Source: Candidatus Omnitrophota bacterium
GTDB taxonomy: Bacteria > Omnitrophota > Gorgyraeia > Gygaellales > Profunditerraquicolaceae
Reading direction: 5' to 3'
NCBI GenBank assembly: GCA_016208765.1
Contig: JACQXK010000065.1
Coordinates: forward strand, 962-64,961
DNA: 64,000 nt
Positions 1 through 6,000 of the stretch are shown one piece after another (position 1 is the stretch's first letter; every line of letters begins with the position of its first letter). The position numbers are program-made.

Positions 1-3000
1 ATAATCATTGGGATAATTTTGATTGGGAAAGAGATATTAAAAATGAAAACTTTCTCGTTTTTTATATTGATTTCACTATTGGTTGCTAGTTTATGTGAGA
101 AATTAATATTAATTACTATAATTTCCAATAAATCCTACTATCCGTTTCCTTTGCTGGGAAATTTCATTGGGATTTTTATTGATTTGTTTTTCATAATTTA
201 TCTATTGTATTTTACGGGAGAATTTCTAGGATATAATACGAGAGAATAAGGGATTTCTCAAACAATAAGGACCGTTTCCTTCTATCCATTTAACAGAGTA
301 AAAGTTATGGGGGGGGGGGTAATTACGGGGACACAATACTTAATCCTCCTAATTGAAATGTCCCGTAATCCAAGTTATCATACAACTTATTCAAAAAGGA
401 GCCCGAATGACAAATTTCTTAGTAAGGTGGGGAATAAATGCGATGTCAATTTTTGTTGTTGCCCACATTGTAAGAGGTATAGAGGTCTCAAGCACCCTGA
501 CTGTGCTGGTGATTGCTCTTGTGCTGGGGGTTATTAATGCTTTCTTGAGGCCGATAATTATTCTTGTTACTCTTCCAATCAATATCCTAACCTTAGGGAT
601 GTTCACTCTTTTTATAAACGGAGCCCTTTTTTATCTTGTATCTAAAATTGTTAAGGGTTTTGTGATCACAGGTTTCTGGCCGGCATTCTGGGGCTACATA
701 CTTTTTAGCATTATCAGCTTTTTATTGAATCTCTTGGTCAATTCTGTTTAGCTGCTCAAAATAGTGGCTGCCTACTTTTTCACATCTACGTTGGAGGAAG
801 TACTTTTCATTTTGACATAGGTTTATTGATTTTCCTATTGACATAATTTCATTACTCAATTAGTATAATGCCGTAATGCCTATTGAGAGAATAATTTGCA
901 TGATTTCCAGAGGACGAATCCTTAAGAAAAAGGGCTTCGTCCTATTTTTTTGTCTGCTGAGTTTCATGGCAGTATCTGTTCCTTCCTACGCAGTTTCTCC
1001 TGAAAATAATTCCTTGCTTGGTTCATGGTTAGCCCAAAAGGCCATGACAGGCGAATGGGGTGGCGCGCGAAACAAGCTTGCGAATAAAGGGGTTGATCTC
1101 TCTGCAAACTACACTACGGATATCGTAGGGAATCCTGCCGGAGGCTTAAGAAAAGGGGTAAATTACGCCGGTTTCCTGCAAGCCTCAGCAGCAATTGATT
1201 TTAATAAACTTGCTTCCTTGGCTGGTTGGGCCCTGACCGTAAGCAATTATCTTGCTTCTGGAAGAAATCTCTCCAATGAGATCGGTAATTTCTTCGGGCC
1301 ACAACAGATCTATGTTCCGGGAGATTATTATTTTGGGCAACTTGACCTTTCCTATACTTTCCCGGGTGATAAATTAATATTAGAAGGGGGCCGCCTTTTT
1401 GCCGGAGACGTTTTTGCCACTTTAGGCCTGTGGCAATACTATGTGAGCGGAGGCATTAACGGTAATCTAGTATCTATTTCCACTAACACCTTTTTTCCGA
1501 ACTTTCAGATCGCTACCTGGGGCGTGCGCGCCACTTATGAGCCGGACAAACATTGGAAGTTTTCTGCTGCCGCATATAATGCCAATCCTAAAGTAGCAGA
1601 TACTTTCAGGCACGGGCTTGATTTTAATTTCAGCACGGACCATGGCTGTTTGGGCATCACCCAGCTTACTTATAAACATCATCAGGAGAGAAACAGCGGC
1701 CTGCCGGGAAGCGCTACTCTTGGAGGCTATTATAATAGCGACACCTTCGCGGGTGTGGCAGAACCAACAAGGAAATGGAGCGGAAATTACGGTGTTTATT
1801 TTATAATTGACCAGATGATCTTTCGCGGGGAATGGCCTTCATTTTCAGGGCCGGCGCATTTAAGTTCTGAAGCCCGTTATTCAGAAAAAGTTAAACATGC
1901 TTATTACCGCCAGGTTGTTTCGCCTGTTGACCGGCCGGTAGGATTGTCTGTCTGGAGCGCAGTATATGCTGCTCCGCAGGAAAAAATTAACACTGAAGTC
2001 TACCAGTTTGCCGGAGGGCTGGTGTATCAGGGGATGTTTCCTAACCGCGACCGTGATGTTACAGCCTTCTGCGTTCTATACGGCAGGTTCAGCGATAAAT
2101 TACTCGGGCAGGAAGCAGAGACCGTGCTTGAGTTTAACCATCGTTTTCAGGTCGGGCAATGGTGCTACATCACTCCGGACTTCCAGTATATTTTTAATCT
2201 CAACGGACAGCATAATATTGATAACGCCGTAGTCTTAGGCGTGGAAGCCAGTTTTAATTTTTAGAAAGGGGCAATAGCAAATGAGAATAAAGCAGGCAAT
2301 ATTAATTTGTTTATCGGGGATTTTTGTCTTACTTTCCCTGATTTCATGCAAGAAGGCTCCTCCGTCGGTGGATATCAGCGCACCACTCTTGACTAACAAT
2401 CCTACCTGGGACATCGTCGCCACCAACAGGCAGCCCTTACTGACATTCTTTAACTCCAGGGGAGGCGTCGGAAAGCGAACCTATATAATCCAGCTTGATA
2501 CAAACGAAAACTTCAGCAGCCAGAACCTTATTCAATATAAAGACATTCCGGAAACCGACTTCTATACCACGCAAAAATTGGTTGAGGCGGACAATCCTCT
2601 TTTGGATGATGTCAGGTACTATTGGAGGGTGCGGGCAGTGGATTCCGTCGGGAATATCGGGCCTTGGGCAAAGTCGCGTTTTTTTGTGGATACTTCCTCG
2701 GATGACGCGTTTATGAATATGGTGAGGGTCCCGGTAAAAAATGTTGAGGTTTCAGGAGGGTCCAATCTTAAGAATATTACTGATATAGATGACCCCGGAC
2801 AGGTAAGTTTCTGGCAATCAACTCCTCCGGGTGAGCCTACCCAATGGGTCAAGTTTGAATTGGAGGATGAGGTAACTATTGCCAGGATCTGGATGCTTTC
2901 TAATACCGACGGTTCAGGGGATGGCTGGCTCAAGGATTTTGTTTGGCAGTTGAGTGCAGACGGGCAGAATTGGGATGACATTGATGGATCAGAAGTAGCG

Positions 3001-6000
3001 GACAATGATACTTACAGGAATATAATTGATATTGCTCCGGTTAGTGCGCGGTATCTCAGGTTATTGATCAAGAGTTGGCGTGGTTATGCCCCTCAGATAA
3101 ACGCAATTATTCTTTATTCTCCGGGTATGCCGCCGGTTCCCCAGCCGCCTGAAGGAAATTATGTTTTGATCGTGGGTAACCAGATGAACGGTTTTACATT
3201 CACTGACCTTGCTAAAAAAGTTGAGAGCCTTGGTCTTGGGCTTAAGACCCTGGTGGTGCCTAATCACGAAGTAAGCCTTGCCATGCTTGAAGCGCTCAGT
3301 AATAAACCTGTGGCGATTATTTTAAGCGGTAATAACGCGGATTATCCTAATATGCCAATGTTTGAGTTAAATGGAGAGTATGAAATTATCAGGCAAACCG
3401 ATATACCTATATTAGGTATTTGTTGCGGACATCAGCAGCTGGCCATGGCTTACGGATTTACTTATGCCAGAAGTATGGGCTGGTCTGATATCTCTAGTAT
3501 GGAAAAGCCAAAGGTGCGACAGGAGATAAAGATTGTCAGGAAGGATCCGGTATTCAATGGCATGCCTGATCCATTTGTCGCGGCAGAAGTTCACGGATGG
3601 GCCATAGGGTATTTGCCCGAAAGGTTTGAGGTCATTGCCCAATCCGATTATATACAATCGGTAAAGGATAAATCTCGGTTAATTTACGGTGAGCAGTTTC
3701 ACGCCGAAATACAGGTTTCCTATAATCAGGGCGGCCCGTATCTGGTTAATTTCTTAAAGATGGTTTTAGAAAGACAGGCAAAAGGAGGTTAAGGATTATG
3801 TTGCATTCCCGTAGGAAACCCCATGTAATCAAAGAAAATAAAGAACTTTTGGATCCGGTTTACGGCTCGGCTGACCTGGGACGTGTGTTGCCAAAATACA
3901 AAATGCCGCAGAAAGAAATGTCCGCGCAGGCCGCCTACCGGGTGGTGCATGACGAATTGATGCTTGACGGAAATTCCCGGCAGAACCTGGCAACATTTTG
4001 CACCACTTGGGTTGAGCCGGAGGCCCAGCAGTTGATGTCCGAATGCGTGGACAAAAACATGATAGATAAGGACGAGTATCCGCAGACAGCCGAGATAGAA
4101 TGTCGTTGTGTGCATATGCTGGCTGATTTGTGGCATTCGCCGGAGGCAGAAGATACCATCGGTTGTTCCACTACGGGATCAAGCGAAGCTGCGATGCTCG
4201 GCGGCCTGGCAATGAAATGGGCCTGGCGCAAGAGAATGGCGGCACAGGGCAAAAGCACGGAAAAGCCTAACCTGGTTACCGGGCCGGTGCAGATATGTTG
4301 GCATAAATTCTGCCGTTATTGGGACGTGGAAATGCGTGAGATCCCGATGGAAGGCGGCCGTCTTTTGATGGATGGTGATGTAGCCGTAAAATACTGCGAC
4401 GAGAATACTATCGGGGTAGTGCCGACTTTGGGAGTTACTTTTACCGGCCAATACGAGCCGGTCAAAGAGATAGCTGAGGCCTTGGATAAGTTTCAGAAGA
4501 ATACAGGGCTGGATATTCCTATTCATGTTGATGGAGCAAGCGGCGGGTTTCTGGCGCCTTTTCTTTCACCAGAATTAGAATGGGACTTTCGTCTTAAACG
4601 AGTGAGATCCATCAACGCCTCGGGGCATAAATTCGGCTTGGCGCCTTTGGGTGTCGGCTGGGTGGTTTGGAGAGACAAAGCAGACCTGCCTGAGGAACTT
4701 ATTTTTAATGTTAATTATCTGGGCGGAAATATGCCCACTTTTGCTCTGAATTTTTCGCGGCCGGGTGGTGAGATCATCGCGCAGTATTATAATTTTCTGC
4801 GCCTGGGCAGAGAAGGTTATCAAAAGATACAGAAAGCCTGCCAGAATGTGGCAATTTATTTAGCCGAAGAGATTACCAAGATGGGGCCGTTTGAGATTAT
4901 TTATAACGGCAAGGACGGGATACCCGCTCTTTGCTGGAAGCTTAAAGATGGCGCTCAGCCGGGGTTTACCTTGTTTGATATGGCTGACCGACTGCGTACT
5001 TACGGATGGCTGGTTCCGGCATATACCATGCCGCCTAAGAGGGAGGATTTGGCTGTGCAGAGAATACTGGTGCGTAGAGGATTTAGCCGCGATCTGGCTT
5101 CACTCTTATTGGATGATATGCGCCGTTGCCTTGATTACTTTACCAAGCATCCGTCGGCAAAGCCTTTGACGGAGAAAGAAGCCGGAGGCTTTAAACATAG
5201 TTAAACCCGGAAATCTATTGCAAAATCCGGGTTAAACGGAGGCTTAAATTATGACAAAAACAAAAGTGGCTTCAATGAGTATTTTCGCTATGGCGATGAT
5301 GACTTCGGCTGCAATTATGAGCCTGCGCGGGCTACCGATGATCGCAAAAGAAGAATTCACCTTATTTTTCTATATCGGTTTTGCCACAATAATGTTTTTG
5401 ATTCCTGCTGCGCTTGTGGCGGCTGAACTTGGCGGCATGTTCGGCGAAGAGGAGGGTGGTGTATATACCTGGGTCAAGGAGGCATTTGGAAAACGCTGTG
5501 GGTTTGTGGCTATCTGGCTGCAGTGGGTGCAAAATGTTGTCTGGTATCCTACGCCACTTGCTTTTGCCGCGGCAACCTTTGCCTATGTTATCGGAGCAGG
5601 GAACCTTGCTTCTAATGGTATTTTTACGGGATTGTTTTGTATTATTTTTTATTGGGCGGCAACCTGGATTTCAGTGCGCGATTCAAGCTCAATCACTAAG
5701 ATCACAAGTTACGGTTTTTTGACCGGGTCAATTTTTCCTGCTTTGGTATTGGTGGTGTTGGCGGTTATCTGGTGGCTGCAAGGGCATCCTTTGGGATTTG
5801 CGAATTTGCCTGCCTCGCAGGGAGCGCTTGATGCGGTAATAAATAATCACGTGCATCCGCGGATATTCCCGCATATCAGCGGATTAGGGGATATTGCTTT
5901 TTTGTCAGGCGTGATTCTGCTTTTTGCAGGCGTTGAGGTGCATGCGGTTCATGCCAATCGGATGCCTAAACCACAGATACAGTATCCCATTGCGCTGTTG

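What the first reader, a model, noticed from the sequence alone, without database searches (positions are those of the whole stretch)
2281..3792. Unusual domain fusion: lipoprotein signal + FN3-like + discoidin (F5/8 type C) + class I glutamine amidotransferase
GATase1 domains are normally cytoplasmic partners of synthases. Here the domain has an intact Cys (ILGICCGHQQ) and His-Glu (FHAEI), and is fused behind a lipobox and carbohydrate/cell-surface-binding-type domains. This implies an exported, surface-tethered hydrolase with a targeting module.
Basis: inference. Interest (0 to 1): 0.6.

Follow-up and report, generated by a model that had tools for sequence, protein, structure and literature searches.

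The report
Exported glutaminase-like enzyme in Gad operon
The gene is real and encodes a lipoprotein-type, three-domain enzyme (Ig-like + discoidin + class I glutamine amidotransferase) from a widespread uncharacterised family that usually sits beside glutamate decarboxylase and its glutamate/GABA antiporter, so it most likely makes glutamate for that proton-consuming system.

Summary
ORF 2281-3792 (+, 503 aa) has a signal peptide with lipobox (LIS|C23), an Ig/FN3-like domain, an F5/8-type-C domain (Pfam 3e-15) and a class I GATase domain (Pfam 2e-18). The Cys381-His474-Glu476 triad is present, and the AlphaFold model is compact (pLDDT 93, pTM 0.88).

The fusion is not a one-off. More than 300 homologues (42-77% identity, same architecture) occur in Omnitrophota, Desulfobacterota, Planctomycetota, Chlamydiota, Bacteroidales and CPR-like MAGs. 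No paper was found.

Here the gene lies in a tight, GC-rich cassette: oprB porin, this gene, gadB, gadC. Of 25 non-redundant related loci with 3 kb or more on both sides, 13 carry gadB and 14 a GadC-like antiporter within 4 kb, in several gene orders. Others carry APC, MFS or SDF transporters.

Best explanation (inferred, untested): a stand-alone glutaminase or gamma-glutamyl hydrolase supplying glutamate to GadC/GadB. It would be a non-homologous, here periplasmic, counterpart of GlsA/YbaS in glutamine-dependent Gad systems.

The "surface-targeting module" reading is only partly supported, because a clade without any signal peptide keeps both N-terminal domains.

Verdict: new variant of a known kind, moderately interesting.

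The parts
876..2264 (+). OprB-family outer-membrane porin, first gene of the cassette. The true start may be a few codons downstream of 876.
   Evidence: Pfam OprB PF04966, 143 bits. Conserved directly upstream of the homologue in six Omnitrophota loci: L001-L004, L013, L016. Shares the raised GC of the cassette. A TTGACA-17-TAGTAT promoter-like site lies at 838-866 and a terminator-like hairpin at 749-770 after the preceding gene (consensus matches only).
2281..3792 (+). The finding: a 503-aa lipoprotein-type Ig-like + discoidin + class I GATase protein.
2281..2349 (+). Signal peptide with lipobox (MRIK, hydrophobic core, LIS|C23).
   Evidence: Sequence. Lipobox conserved in the closest homologues P0002-P0010. 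92 of 117 homologues have a hydrophobic N-terminus and 30 of these have a lipobox.
2377..2691 (+). Ig/FN3-like beta-sandwich domain (aa ~33-137), starting with the near-invariant L-T-N-N-P motif.
   Evidence: Strands in the model. Weak Ig_Rha78A_N hit. Matches tandem Ig_Rha78A_N/fn3 repeats of giant proteins. Conservation.
2716..3126 (+). Discoidin / F5/8 type C (CBM32-like) domain (aa ~146-282).
   Evidence: Pfam PF00754 56.8 bits and PF22633 38.6 bits. Foldseek matches to CBM32 modules and galactose oxidase. phmmer match to the galactose oxidase N-terminal domain.
3154..3780 (+). Class I (triad) glutamine amidotransferase domain (aa ~292-500). Cys381 is at nt 3421-3423, His474 at 3700-3702 and Glu476 at 3706-3708. 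The GHQ glutamine-binding motif is at 3427-3435.
   Evidence: Pfam, NCBIfam, PDB sequence hits to M. jannaschii GMP synthase subunit A at 3e-16, Foldseek. Triad conserved in 117-119 of 120 homologues.
3798..5204 (+). Glutamate decarboxylase GadB, starting 6 nt after the stop of the finding.
   Evidence: TIGR01788 675 bits against a cut-off of 380. Pfam Pyridoxal_deC. Found next to homologues in 13 of 25 well-flanked non-redundant loci.
5251..6690 (+). GadC-like APC-family glutamate (or glutamine)/GABA antiporter.
   Evidence: Best NCBIfam hits are Glu_GABA_anti (421 bits) and Gln_GABA_anti (416 bits), both below the equivalog cut-offs. Pfam AA_permease_2. Found next to homologues in 14 of 25 loci.

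Best explanation
The gene encodes an autonomous Cys-His-Glu amidohydrolase of the class I glutamine-amidotransferase fold. It most likely converts L-glutamine to L-glutamate plus ammonia. In this Omnitrophota genome it is exported and lipid-anchored facing the periplasm.

It is the second gene of a four-gene cassette that spans the envelope:
- The OprB porin lets the substrate through the outer membrane.
- The lipoprotein makes glutamate, and NH3 that picks up a proton, in the periplasm.
- The GadC-like antiporter exchanges external glutamate for internal GABA.
- Cytoplasmic GadB decarboxylates glutamate, consuming a proton.

The net result is proton consumption, which can give acid protection, a proton-motive force, or both. 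The enzyme would therefore be a non-homologous counterpart of the GlsA/YbaS glutaminase of glutamine-dependent Gad systems (AR2_Q), placed in a different compartment. In signal-less relatives it would act in the cytoplasm, as GlsA does. The Ig-like and discoidin domains are probably integral to the enzyme (substrate capture, or stabilising the active GATase conformation in place of a synthase partner) rather than a mere address label.

Shown: domain identities, triad conservation, signal sequence, gene linkage. Inferred: substrate, product use, topology, role of the N-terminal domains.
For: Domains and an intact triad are present. GIC[C/A]GHQ is found in 114 of 120 homologues (119 keep the GIC.G nucleophile elbow) and QFH.E in 117 of 120. 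This includes the Gln385 and His438 positions that align with the glutamine-binding GHQ and SH motifs of GMP synthase GATase. The domain scores much better as an amidotransferase-type GATase (67.5 bits; the best PDB and Foldseek hits are GuaA, PabA and TrpG glutaminase subunits) than as Peptidase_C26 (30.4 bits). No synthase partner is nearby. GadB is an equivalog-level glutamate decarboxylase and the next gene is GadC-like. The intergenic gaps are 17, 6 and 47 nt. The four genes form a compositional island: GC 0.45-0.50 and GC3 0.45-0.54, above the maximum of the other 37 genes in the window (0.433 and 0.435). Linkage to gadB and a GadC-like antiporter recurs in 13-14 of 25 well-flanked non-redundant loci from several phyla. 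The gene orders differ: oprB-X-gadB-gadC, X-APC-gadB, APC-gadB-X, and divergent. Other loci have three APC permeases, an MFS transporter or an SDF (Glu/Asp-type) symporter adjacent. Signal-less members sit next to APC permeases, so their substrate must be a small transportable amino-acid-like molecule. Precedent: the gadBC-glsA operon of Brucella microti and YbaS/GadC of E. coli form a glutamine-dependent Gad system (PMC5695133; PMC6250119). Periplasmic Gln-to-Glu deamidation coupled to glutamate uptake is known in Helicobacter (PMC3279353 and its reference to Leduc et al. 2010).
Against: No enzymatic data exist for any member. Isolated GATase subunits such as M. jannaschii GMP synthase subunit A are normally inactive without their synthase (established knowledge), so autonomy has to be assumed. 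The oxyanion-strand motif is SGNN rather than the canonical SGG(P). About a third of well-flanked loci show no Gad or transporter neighbour. The need for a carbohydrate-binding-type discoidin domain and a carbohydrate-type porin is not explained by free glutamine as substrate. A catalytic thiol in the periplasm requires a reducing setting, which is plausible for these anaerobes but was not tested. GadC-type antiporters can import glutamine directly, so an external glutaminase is not obviously needed.
Confidence: 0.5

Rival explanations
1. It is a gamma-glutamyl hydrolase (Peptidase C26-like) acting on a larger gamma-glutamyl substrate. Candidates are glutathione or other gamma-glutamyl peptides, poly-gamma-glutamate, folyl- or F420-polyglutamate tails, or a glycan-linked gamma-glutamyl compound held by the discoidin domain. 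It would release glutamate that still feeds GadC/GadB or other transporters, as a functional analogue of periplasmic gamma-glutamyltranspeptidase.
For: Peptidase_C26 is hit above its cut-off (30.4 bits against 20.5). The discoidin/CBM32 and Ig domains and the OprB carbohydrate-type porin suggest a glycan or polymeric ligand. Eukaryotic C26 gamma-glutamyl hydrolase is itself secreted or lysosomal (established knowledge). One homologue lies between dCTP deaminase and the folate-dependent ThyX, and several lie next to MFS transporters. The Gad linkage is equally well explained, because the product is again glutamate.
Against: The domain is clearly closer to amidotransferase glutaminase subunits than to C26 enzymes: 67.5 bits against 30.4 bits, and no C26 structure appears among the top 50 Foldseek hits. 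Signal-less members next to APC amino-acid permeases cannot reach polymeric or glycan-bound substrates. No polymer- or peptide-uptake genes are conserved nearby.
Confidence: 0.25
2. It is a surface-tethered hydrolase whose FN3 and discoidin domains target it to carbohydrates on a cell surface (its own or that of a host or prey), with a role unrelated to the neighbouring gad genes, for example attacking or modifying an envelope component.
For: The protein has a lipoprotein signal and CBM32-like and Ig-like domains typical of surface glycan-binding proteins. The Ig-like domain resembles repeats of giant surface proteins. Many carriers are small-celled, possibly host-associated lineages such as Omnitrophota, CPR and Parachlamydiales.
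Against: Linkage to gadB/gadC and amino-acid transporters recurs across phyla and gene orders. Signal-less members retain both N-terminal domains. Most members have no lipobox, so they are soluble rather than tethered. The high pTM and the conserved discoidin loops argue for one rigid catalytic unit rather than a tethered targeting module.
Confidence: 0.1
3. The physiologically important product is ammonia rather than glutamate. On this view it is a periplasmic glutamine deamidase for nitrogen scavenging or periplasmic pH buffering, only loosely connected with the Gad system.
For: The chemistry is the same as in the best explanation. Some loci lack Gad genes entirely. One locus also carries a carbon-nitrogen hydrolase and a carbamoyltransferase, which are other ammonia-yielding functions.
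Against: No ammonium transporter or glutamine synthetase was seen next to any homologue examined. Neighbours were identified by tblastn with Gad, porin and transporter queries and by Pfam scans of selected ORFs only, so this is not an exhaustive check. The recurrent neighbours found are glutamate-using or glutamate-transporting proteins.
Confidence: 0.08
4. It is a non-catalytic binding protein or pseudoenzyme, for example a periplasmic glutamine or glutamate sensor or binding partner of the antiporter.
For: Isolated GATase subunits are often inactive. The oxyanion motif is atypical, SGNN. Divergent branches have lost the Cys: P0141 has Ser, and P0163 has Gly and has also lost the His.
Against: Cys, His and Glu are almost invariant across about 120 core members spanning several phyla, which indicates selection for catalysis.
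Confidence: 0.04

Closest known systems
Glutaminase-dependent Gad acid-resistance system (AR2_Q): GlsA/YbaS + GadC (+ GadB), e.g. the gadBC-glsA operon of Brucella microti (PMC5695133, PMC6250119)
   Same: A putative glutamine-to-glutamate hydrolase is encoded in one operon with glutamate decarboxylase and a Glu/Gln:GABA antiporter. The expected net chemistry is the same: Gln to Glu + NH3, then Glu + H+ to GABA + CO2.
   Different: The enzyme is not a GlsA/YbaS (serine, beta-lactamase-like) glutaminase but a class I GATase triad domain fused to Ig-like and discoidin domains. Here, and in most relatives, it carries a signal peptide and so acts outside the cytoplasm. An OprB porin is part of the cassette. 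The carriers are uncultivated anaerobes rather than enteric or host-associated neutralophiles. Function is untested.
Glutaminase subunits of two-component class I amidotransferases (GMP synthase subunit A of M. jannaschii/P. horikoshii, PabA, TrpG)
   Same: These are the best sequence and structure matches (E 3e-16; Foldseek E 2e-12, TM 0.77). They share the G-x-C-x-G-H-Q nucleophile elbow, the His-x-Glu dyad and the glutamine-binding positions.
   Different: No synthase partner or ammonia channel is present. The protein is exported. It has an about 290-aa N-terminal Ig + discoidin extension. The oxyanion strand reads SGNN followed by an insertion, not SGGP. NCBIfam scores are far below every equivalog cut-off.
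Peptidase C26 gamma-glutamyl hydrolases (eukaryotic GGH, bacterial PuuD, plant GGP1)
   Same: These are stand-alone class I GATase-fold Cys hydrolases that release glutamate from gamma-glutamyl compounds without a synthase. Eukaryotic GGH is also extracytoplasmic.
   Different: The C26 profile match is weaker than the GATase match (30 bits against 67 bits). Known C26 enzymes have no discoidin or Ig domains, and none is known to be linked to gadB/gadC.
Periplasmic deamidase-transporter couples of Helicobacter (gamma-glutamyltranspeptidase + GltS; AnsB + DcuA; Leduc et al. 2010, cited in PMC3279353)
   Same: The logic is the same: external or periplasmic conversion of glutamine to glutamate plus ammonia, followed by uptake of glutamate.
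   Different: The enzyme fold is unrelated (Ntn hydrolase). Uptake is by a Na+/glutamate symporter rather than a GABA antiporter, and the genes are not clustered with a decarboxylase.
Ig + CBM32 (discoidin) modules of bacterial sialidases and other glycoside hydrolases (e.g. Micromonospora viridifaciens sialidase)
   Same: The tandem of an Ig-like linker domain and a galactose-binding-type discoidin domain is the same (Foldseek E about 3e-10).
   Different: Here the module is attached to an amidohydrolase rather than a glycosidase. Its loops are unusually conserved, and it is retained even in cytoplasmic members.

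Membership tests
Class I (triad) glutamine amidotransferase, PF00117 | Profile match above the curated threshold | tested here: met
   67.5 bits against a cut-off of 22.8, aa 319-481.
Class I (triad) glutamine amidotransferase, PF00117 | Nucleophile elbow G-x-C-x-G with catalytic Cys, plus His-x-Glu | tested here: met
   GICCGHQ (Cys381) and FHAE (His474, Glu476). They align with Cys76, His163 and Glu165 of M. jannaschii GATase. Conserved in 117-119 of 120 homologues.
Class I (triad) glutamine amidotransferase, PF00117 | alpha/beta GATase1 fold | tested here: met
   Model pLDDT 93. Foldseek top hits are GMP synthase subunit A, PabA and TrpG, with TM 0.71-0.79 on the target.
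Class I (triad) glutamine amidotransferase, PF00117 | Works with a synthase domain or subunit that receives the ammonia | tested here: not met
   There is no synthase domain in the protein and no conserved synthase neighbour in 47 related locus clusters. The signal peptide places it where ATP-dependent synthases are absent. It therefore has a GATase fold but is not a conventional amidotransferase.
Class I (triad) glutamine amidotransferase, PF00117 | Glutaminase activity | not testable with these tools
   Needs an enzyme assay.
Peptidase C26 (gamma-glutamyl hydrolase) | Profile match above threshold, and a better fit than to related families | tested here: inconclusive
   30.4 bits against a cut-off of 20.5, but weaker than the overlapping GATase hit. 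No C26 structure is among the top 50 Foldseek hits.
F5/8 type C (discoidin) / CBM32 | Profile match and beta-sandwich fold | tested here: met
   PF00754 56.8 bits and PF22633 38.6 bits. Foldseek hits to CBM32 modules and galactose oxidase.
F5/8 type C (discoidin) / CBM32 | Carbohydrate (or lipid) ligand binding | not testable with these tools
   Needs a glycan array or ITC. The binding-loop residues are conserved within the family, but their ligand is unknown.
Bacterial lipoprotein (SPase II substrate) | Basic n-region, hydrophobic h-region, lipobox [LVI][ASTVI][GAS]C within the first ~40 residues | tested here: met
   MRIK + QAILICLSGIFVLLSL + I-S-C23. Conserved in the closest homologues. SignalP and LipoP were not available, and actual lipidation is not testable here.
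Glutaminase-dependent Gad system (AR2_Q) | Glutamate decarboxylase GadB present | tested here: met
   TIGR01788 675 bits against a cut-off of 380.4.
Glutaminase-dependent Gad system (AR2_Q) | GadC Glu/Gln:GABA antiporter present | tested here: inconclusive
   The best NCBIfam hits are the two GadC models (421 and 416 bits), but both are below their equivalog cut-offs of 640 and 650. APC family membership is certain.
Glutaminase-dependent Gad system (AR2_Q) | Glutaminase of the GlsA/YbaS family acting in the cytoplasm | tested here: not met
   The enzyme is a class I GATase-fold protein with a signal peptide. It may work like AR2_Q but is not a member by homology or by compartment.
Glutaminase-dependent Gad system (AR2_Q) | Co-location or co-transcription of hydrolase, decarboxylase and antiporter | tested here: met
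   The gaps are 6 and 47 nt, all genes are on the same strand, and they share a GC island. The linkage recurs in 13-14 of 25 non-redundant well-flanked loci. Transcription itself was not tested.

The most novel reading that the evidence does not exclude
A mobile four-gene cassette (porin, periplasmic class I GATase-fold glutaminase, Glu/GABA antiporter, glutamate decarboxylase) forms an envelope-spanning glutamine-to-GABA pathway. Energy-limited uncultivated anaerobes would use it to consume protons and/or build a proton-motive force. Its enzyme would be a new kind of autonomous, extracytoplasmic triad glutaminase in which fused Ig and discoidin domains replace the synthase partner that normally switches a GATase on.
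Probability: 0.3. Interest if true: 0.65.

Novelty: new variant of a known kind. Interest (0 to 1): 0.55.

Why it matters
Class I glutamine amidotransferases are textbook cytoplasmic, partner-dependent enzymes. A large, conserved family that is exported, partner-less and fused to Ig and discoidin domains would extend what this fold is known to do. It would also raise a mechanistic question: how is the glutaminase switched on without a synthase?

The conserved linkage with gadB/gadC points to a specific, testable role as the glutamate supplier of a decarboxylation/antiport cycle. It also suggests that Omnitrophota, Desulfobacterota, CPR-like bacteria and others carry a Gad-type proton-consuming or energy-conserving module, which has so far been studied mostly in enteric and lactic acid bacteria.

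In practical terms, it gives a functional hypothesis for hundreds of database entries now named only "discoidin domain-containing protein" or "GMP synthase-like glutamine amidotransferase".

Tried and rejected
It was re-run with alignment A2.
- Model coordinates cannot be read, so triad geometry and the discoidin-GATase interface could not be measured. The idea that the N-terminal domains cover or activate the active site remains inference from pTM and conservation only.
- Literature searches for discoidin + GATase + gadC, for Omnitrophota + glutamate decarboxylase, and for exported or lipoprotein GATases found nothing describing this family. Leduc et al. 2010 could not be opened.
- The N-terminal module was searched alone to look for other catalytic partners. 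All full-module matches of complete length are about 500-aa family members. The other hits come from the Ig-like repeat, or occasionally the discoidin domain, in giant multi-repeat proteins. So there was no clue from alternative fusions.
- I looked for further conserved cassette components. Only lineage-specific extras turned up: a short-chain fatty acid transporter, a CN-hydrolase, an MFS transporter and unknown planctomycete proteins.
- An amidotransferase with an unseen periplasmic synthase was rejected: no conserved partner exists, and there is no ATP outside the cytoplasm.
- A gene-calling artefact as the cause of the signal-less forms was rejected where the DNA was read, because in-frame stop codons lie directly upstream of the Met.

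Full report

Yes. The window contains an ATG-initiated ORF at 2281..3792 on the + strand, encoding 503 aa. A Shine-Dalgarno-like GAAAGGGG lies about 9 nt upstream.

Pfam gives four hits above threshold:
- GATase (PF00117), aa 319-481, 67.5 bits, E 1.6e-18.
- F5_F8_type_C (PF00754), aa 162-269, 56.8 bits, E 3.2e-15.
- F5_F8_type_C_2, 38.6 bits.
- Peptidase_C26, 30.4 bits.

There is also a sub-threshold Ig_Rha78A_N match at aa 103-135. NCBIfam finds only distant similarity to GMP synthase subunit A, TrpG and PabA models, all far below their equivalog cut-offs.

ILGICCGHQQ carries Cys381 (nt 3421-3423). FHAEI carries His474 and Glu476 (nt 3700-3708). The N-terminus MRIK-QAILICLSGIFVLLSL-IS|C23 has the n-region, h-region and lipobox of a bacterial lipoprotein. 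Apart from the adjacent pair Cys381/Cys382, the mature protein has no other cysteine.

An AlphaFold2 model built on 40 homologues is very confident (mean pLDDT 93.1, pTM 0.88). It shows an N-terminal helix, two beta-sandwich domains and a C-terminal alpha/beta domain. Foldseek against the PDB matches the C-terminal domain to the glutaminase subunits of GMP synthase (M. jannaschii, T. acidophilum, P. horikoshii), PabA and TrpG (E about 1e-12 to 1e-10, TM 0.71-0.79 normalised to the target). It matches the middle region to Ig + CBM32 galactose-binding modules of sialidases and to isolated CBM32 domains. A sequence search of the PDB agrees: M. jannaschii GMP synthase subunit A at 3e-16, and the galactose oxidase N-terminal domain at 3e-3.

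The FN3-like label for the first domain is supported indirectly. Searched against 1.8 billion representatives, aa ~45-140 match tandem repeats (up to about 30 copies) in giant 1,000-5,800-aa proteins. Pfam calls those repeats Ig_Rha78A_N/fn3.

**2. What is it part of?**

The gene is the second of four tightly spaced + strand genes:
- an OprB-family porin (876-2264; Pfam 143 bits);
- the finding (2281-3792);
- glutamate decarboxylase (3798-5204; TIGR01788 675 bits against a cut-off of 380);
- a GadC-like APC antiporter (5251-6690). Its best NCBIfam hits are the Glu/GABA and Gln/GABA antiporter models at about 420 bits, below the equivalog cut-offs.

The gaps between the genes are 17, 6 and 47 nt.

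The four genes also form a compositional island. Their GC is 0.45-0.50 and GC3 0.45-0.54, each above the maximum seen in the other 37 long genes of the window (GC mean 0.394, max 0.433; GC3 mean 0.373, max 0.435). This fits one horizontally acquired unit.

A promoter-like site precedes oprB, and a terminator-like hairpin follows the preceding, unrelated membrane-protein gene. These are consensus matches only. The genes downstream (an ExeA-like AAA ATPase, a T2SS-C-like protein, two FAD amine-oxidoreductase-like proteins and a 7TM-GAF histidine kinase) look unrelated.

**3. The family**

The identical protein is in public data as a "discoidin domain-containing protein" of a Candidatus Omnitrophica MAG, so the window is from Omnitrophota. 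At least 318 clusters of homologues exist at 90% identity. The 120 listed share 53-82% identity (100% for the identical record) and all have the same Pfam domain set.

Genome and metagenome scans recovered full-length relatives at 41-76% identity from the following:
- Omnitrophota;
- Desulfobacterota/Thermodesulfobacteriota (Syntrophaceae, Desulfomonilaceae);
- Planctomycetota;
- Aerophobetes;
- Ca. Tritonobacter;
- Parachlamydiales;
- a Bacteroidales bin;
- MAGs labelled "Patescibacteria group".

The metagenome scan found 514 confirmed stretches. Many of these are ordinary GATases that share the LGIC[CA]GHQ pattern, so 514 does not count family members.

The whole length is conserved. Conservation starts at a near-invariant L-T-N-N-P motif right after the signal peptide and includes the discoidin loop regions. 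GIC[C/A]GHQ occurs in 114 of 120 members, 119 of 120 keep the GIC.G nucleophile elbow, and QFH.E occurs in 117 of 120.

The oxyanion-strand motif is SGNN in 100 of 120 members, instead of the canonical SGG(P), and is followed by a family-specific insertion.

More divergent branches (32-41% identity) sometimes lose the nucleophile. P0141 has Ser. P0163 has Gly and also lacks the His. The Ig + discoidin module with this signature was found only attached to this GATase domain.

**4. Export**

Of the 117 homologues that could be anchored on the NNP motif, 92 have a strongly hydrophobic N-terminal segment, and 30 of these have a lipobox-like motif. The Omnitrophota proteins closest to the window all have a lipobox. 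Many others look like SPase I substrates (for example ...AHA|E) and so would be soluble periplasmic proteins.

About 15 members, mostly labelled Patescibacteria group, start only 7-17 residues before the conserved L-T-N-N-P motif and have no hydrophobic segment. In L020, L009 and L008 an in-frame stop codon lies directly upstream of the Met, so this is not a gene-calling artefact. Two close relatives of that clade instead carry an N-terminal transmembrane anchor (P0109, P0118).

Export is therefore the rule, and it applies to this window. It is not universal, and the Ig and discoidin domains are kept regardless.

**5. Conserved neighbourhood**

I collected 60 family loci and collapsed them into 47 clusters at 95% nucleotide identity. 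Among the 25 clusters with at least 3 kb on both sides:
- 13 have a gadB homologue within 4 kb;
- 14 have a GadC-like APC antiporter within 4 kb;
- 17 have either Gad genes or an amino-acid, MFS or SDF transporter adjacent.

Several shorter contigs show the same linkage. The gene order varies:
- oprB-X-gadB-gadC in Omnitrophota (L001-L004, L013);
- X-APC-gadB (L005, L006, L011, L031, L032, L046, L049, L050);
- APC-gadB-X (L036, L038-L040, L042, L060);
- divergent gadB-APC next to X on the opposite strand (L020, L041).

Linkage that survives rearrangement across phyla is the classical signature of functional coupling.

Other loci show different neighbours:
- three tandem APC permeases directly upstream (L009/L063);
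- an MFS transporter directly downstream (L007/L027, L012);
- a divergent SDF-family (Glu/Asp/dicarboxylate) symporter (L029).

About a third show nothing obviously related (L022 between dCTP deaminase and ThyX; L025; L030; the locus of P0087, for which no DNA was returned). Lineage-specific extras include a short-chain fatty acid transporter after gadB (L046, L050), and a carbon-nitrogen hydrolase between X and gadC with a carbamoyltransferase upstream (L011).

**6. How it most likely works**

*Shown:* a class I GATase fold with a conserved Cys-His-Glu triad and conserved glutamine-binding positions; no synthase partner; a signal peptide with lipobox in this protein; conserved linkage with glutamate decarboxylase and a Glu/GABA-type antiporter.

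*Inferred:* the enzyme is an autonomous glutaminase, or more broadly a gamma-glutamyl amidohydrolase, whose product, glutamate, feeds the antiporter and decarboxylase. In this genome the four products map onto four compartments:
- the OprB porin in the outer membrane;
- the lipoprotein hydrolase in the periplasm;
- GadC in the inner membrane;
- GadB in the cytoplasm.

The expected chemistry is Gln + H2O to Glu + NH3 outside the cytoplasm, where NH3 takes up a proton. Glu is then exchanged for GABA, and inside the cell Glu + H+ gives GABA + CO2. The output is proton consumption, electrogenic exchange, or both. In other words, it gives acid protection or a proton-motive force. The two cannot be told apart from sequence. 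For groundwater and sediment anaerobes, energy conservation is at least as plausible as acid resistance.

The closest known system by function is the glutamine-dependent Gad system (AR2_Q). In Brucella microti gadB, gadC and glsA are co-transcribed, and GlsA + GadC confer Gln-dependent acid resistance. E. coli YbaS is equivalent (PMC5695133; PMC6250119). The closest topological analogy is Helicobacter, where Gln is deamidated in the periplasm by gamma-glutamyltranspeptidase and the glutamate is then taken up by GltS (PMC3279353 and its reference 47).

Three observations favour free glutamine over larger gamma-glutamyl substrates:
- The GATase profile scores twice as high as the C26 profile.
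- All the best structural matches are amidotransferase glutaminase subunits.
- Signal-less members lie next to amino-acid permeases, and these can only deliver small molecules.

Three things remain unexplained by that choice: the discoidin domain, the Ig domain and the carbohydrate-type porin. I therefore keep a gamma-glutamyl-conjugate hydrolase as a serious rival.

Three points suggest the N-terminal domains form a rigid unit with the catalytic domain rather than a tethered targeting module. They are retained in cytoplasmic members. Their loops are conserved, whereas such loops are normally hypervariable. The inter-domain confidence is high (pTM 0.88). They may capture substrate, or they may hold the GATase in the active conformation that a synthase partner normally induces. 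This last point is speculation; I could not inspect the coordinates.

**7. Comparison with what is known, and membership**

By fold and motifs the C-terminal domain is a class I triad GATase (tested, met). It fails the functional definition of an amidotransferase, because there is no synthase partner and it is extracytoplasmic. It passes the Peptidase_C26 threshold, but less well than the GATase threshold. The middle domain is a bona fide F5/8 type C/CBM32 fold, with ligand binding untested.

The cassette works like AR2_Q on paper. It is not a member by homology, because the hydrolase is not a GlsA/YbaS-family glutaminase, and it is not a member by compartment. No paper describing this family or architecture was found. 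Databases call it "discoidin domain-containing protein", "GMP synthase-like glutamine amidotransferase" or "C26 family cysteine hydrolase domain-containing".

**8. Verdict**

It misses the Gad context, and it over-reads the N-terminal domains as a surface-targeting module.

This is a large, conserved, uncharacterised family, best viewed as a new variant of a known kind: a glutaminase-coupled Gad system built with a different, mostly extracytoplasmic enzyme. Interest is moderate (0.55). A specialist in amidotransferases or acid resistance would find an exported, partner-less triad GATase in a gad operon surprising and easy to test. The function is still inferred, and the underlying physiology (the Gad cycle) is well known.

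Noticed in passing
window 876-6690: The four genes oprB, X, gadB and gadC form a GC island. Their GC is 0.45-0.50 and GC3 0.45-0.54, against a window mean for other genes of 0.394 and 0.373 (maxima 0.433 and 0.435). This suggests horizontal acquisition as one cassette.
   Followed up: partly
L020:8001-9440, L009:7992-9416, L008:27-1457: A clade of homologues, mostly labelled Patescibacteria group, has no signal peptide; in these three loci a stop codon lies immediately upstream of the Met. They keep the Ig and discoidin domains. Close relatives (P0109, P0118) instead have an N-terminal transmembrane anchor.
   Followed up: partly
P0141, P0163 (alignment A3): Divergent family branches have lost the catalytic Cys. 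P0141 reads GISGGHH. P0163 reads GIGAGFH and has also lost the catalytic His. They are possibly pseudoenzymes, or P0141 may use a Ser nucleophile.
   Followed up: no
L018:4258-7898 and L019:4610-7944: In two Planctomycetota loci the homologue is preceded by two conserved proteins (about 560/531 aa and 491/427 aa) with no significant Pfam match. They share 58% and 31% identity between the two loci. They may be lineage-specific partners replacing Gad genes or transporters.
   Followed up: partly
L046:10566-11867, L050:7823-8959, L011:6842-7822 and 9526-10683: Some Gad-linked loci carry extra genes. A short-chain fatty acid transporter (PF02667) lies directly after gadB in two loci. In Ca. Tritonobacter a carbon-nitrogen hydrolase lies between X and gadC, with an ornithine/aspartate carbamoyltransferase-family gene upstream.
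   Followed up: no
L022:7306-10296: In one lineage (P0110, seen on 22 contigs) the gene lies between dCTP deaminase and the flavin- and folate-dependent thymidylate synthase ThyX, with no Gad genes nearby. This is a possible hint of a different (folate polyglutamate?) role in that lineage.
   Followed up: no
window 2377-2691 (aa ~45-140 of the protein): The N-terminal Ig-like domain is similar to a repeat present in up to about 30 tandem copies in giant 1,000-5,800-aa proteins of the representative library. Pfam calls the repeat Ig_Rha78A_N/fn3.
   Followed up: partly
window 1-64000: Every ORF of 200 aa or more listed in the window is on the + strand, and GC skew is positive throughout (cumulative skew rises monotonically). 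This fits one long co-oriented leading-strand segment.
   Followed up: no
window 6974-13369: Downstream of the cassette lie an ExeA-like AAA_22 ATPase, a T2SS-C-like protein, two paralogous FAD amine-oxidoreductase/phytoene-desaturase-like genes and a HisKA_7TM-GAF histidine kinase. They have no evident connection to the finding.
   Followed up: no
L014 (JAEOSO010000160.1, 2.2 kb): A homologue sits on a 2.2-kb contig binned as 'Candidatus Borrarchaeota archaeon'. Given the short contig and the otherwise bacterial distribution, this is probably a binning error rather than an archaeal member.
   Followed up: no
window 5251-6690: The GadC-like antiporter is 479 aa. From my own knowledge (not checked here), E. 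coli GadC is about 511 aa and carries a C-terminal plug. NCBIfam scores are below the equivalog cut-offs, so pH gating may differ from the enteric system.
   Followed up: no
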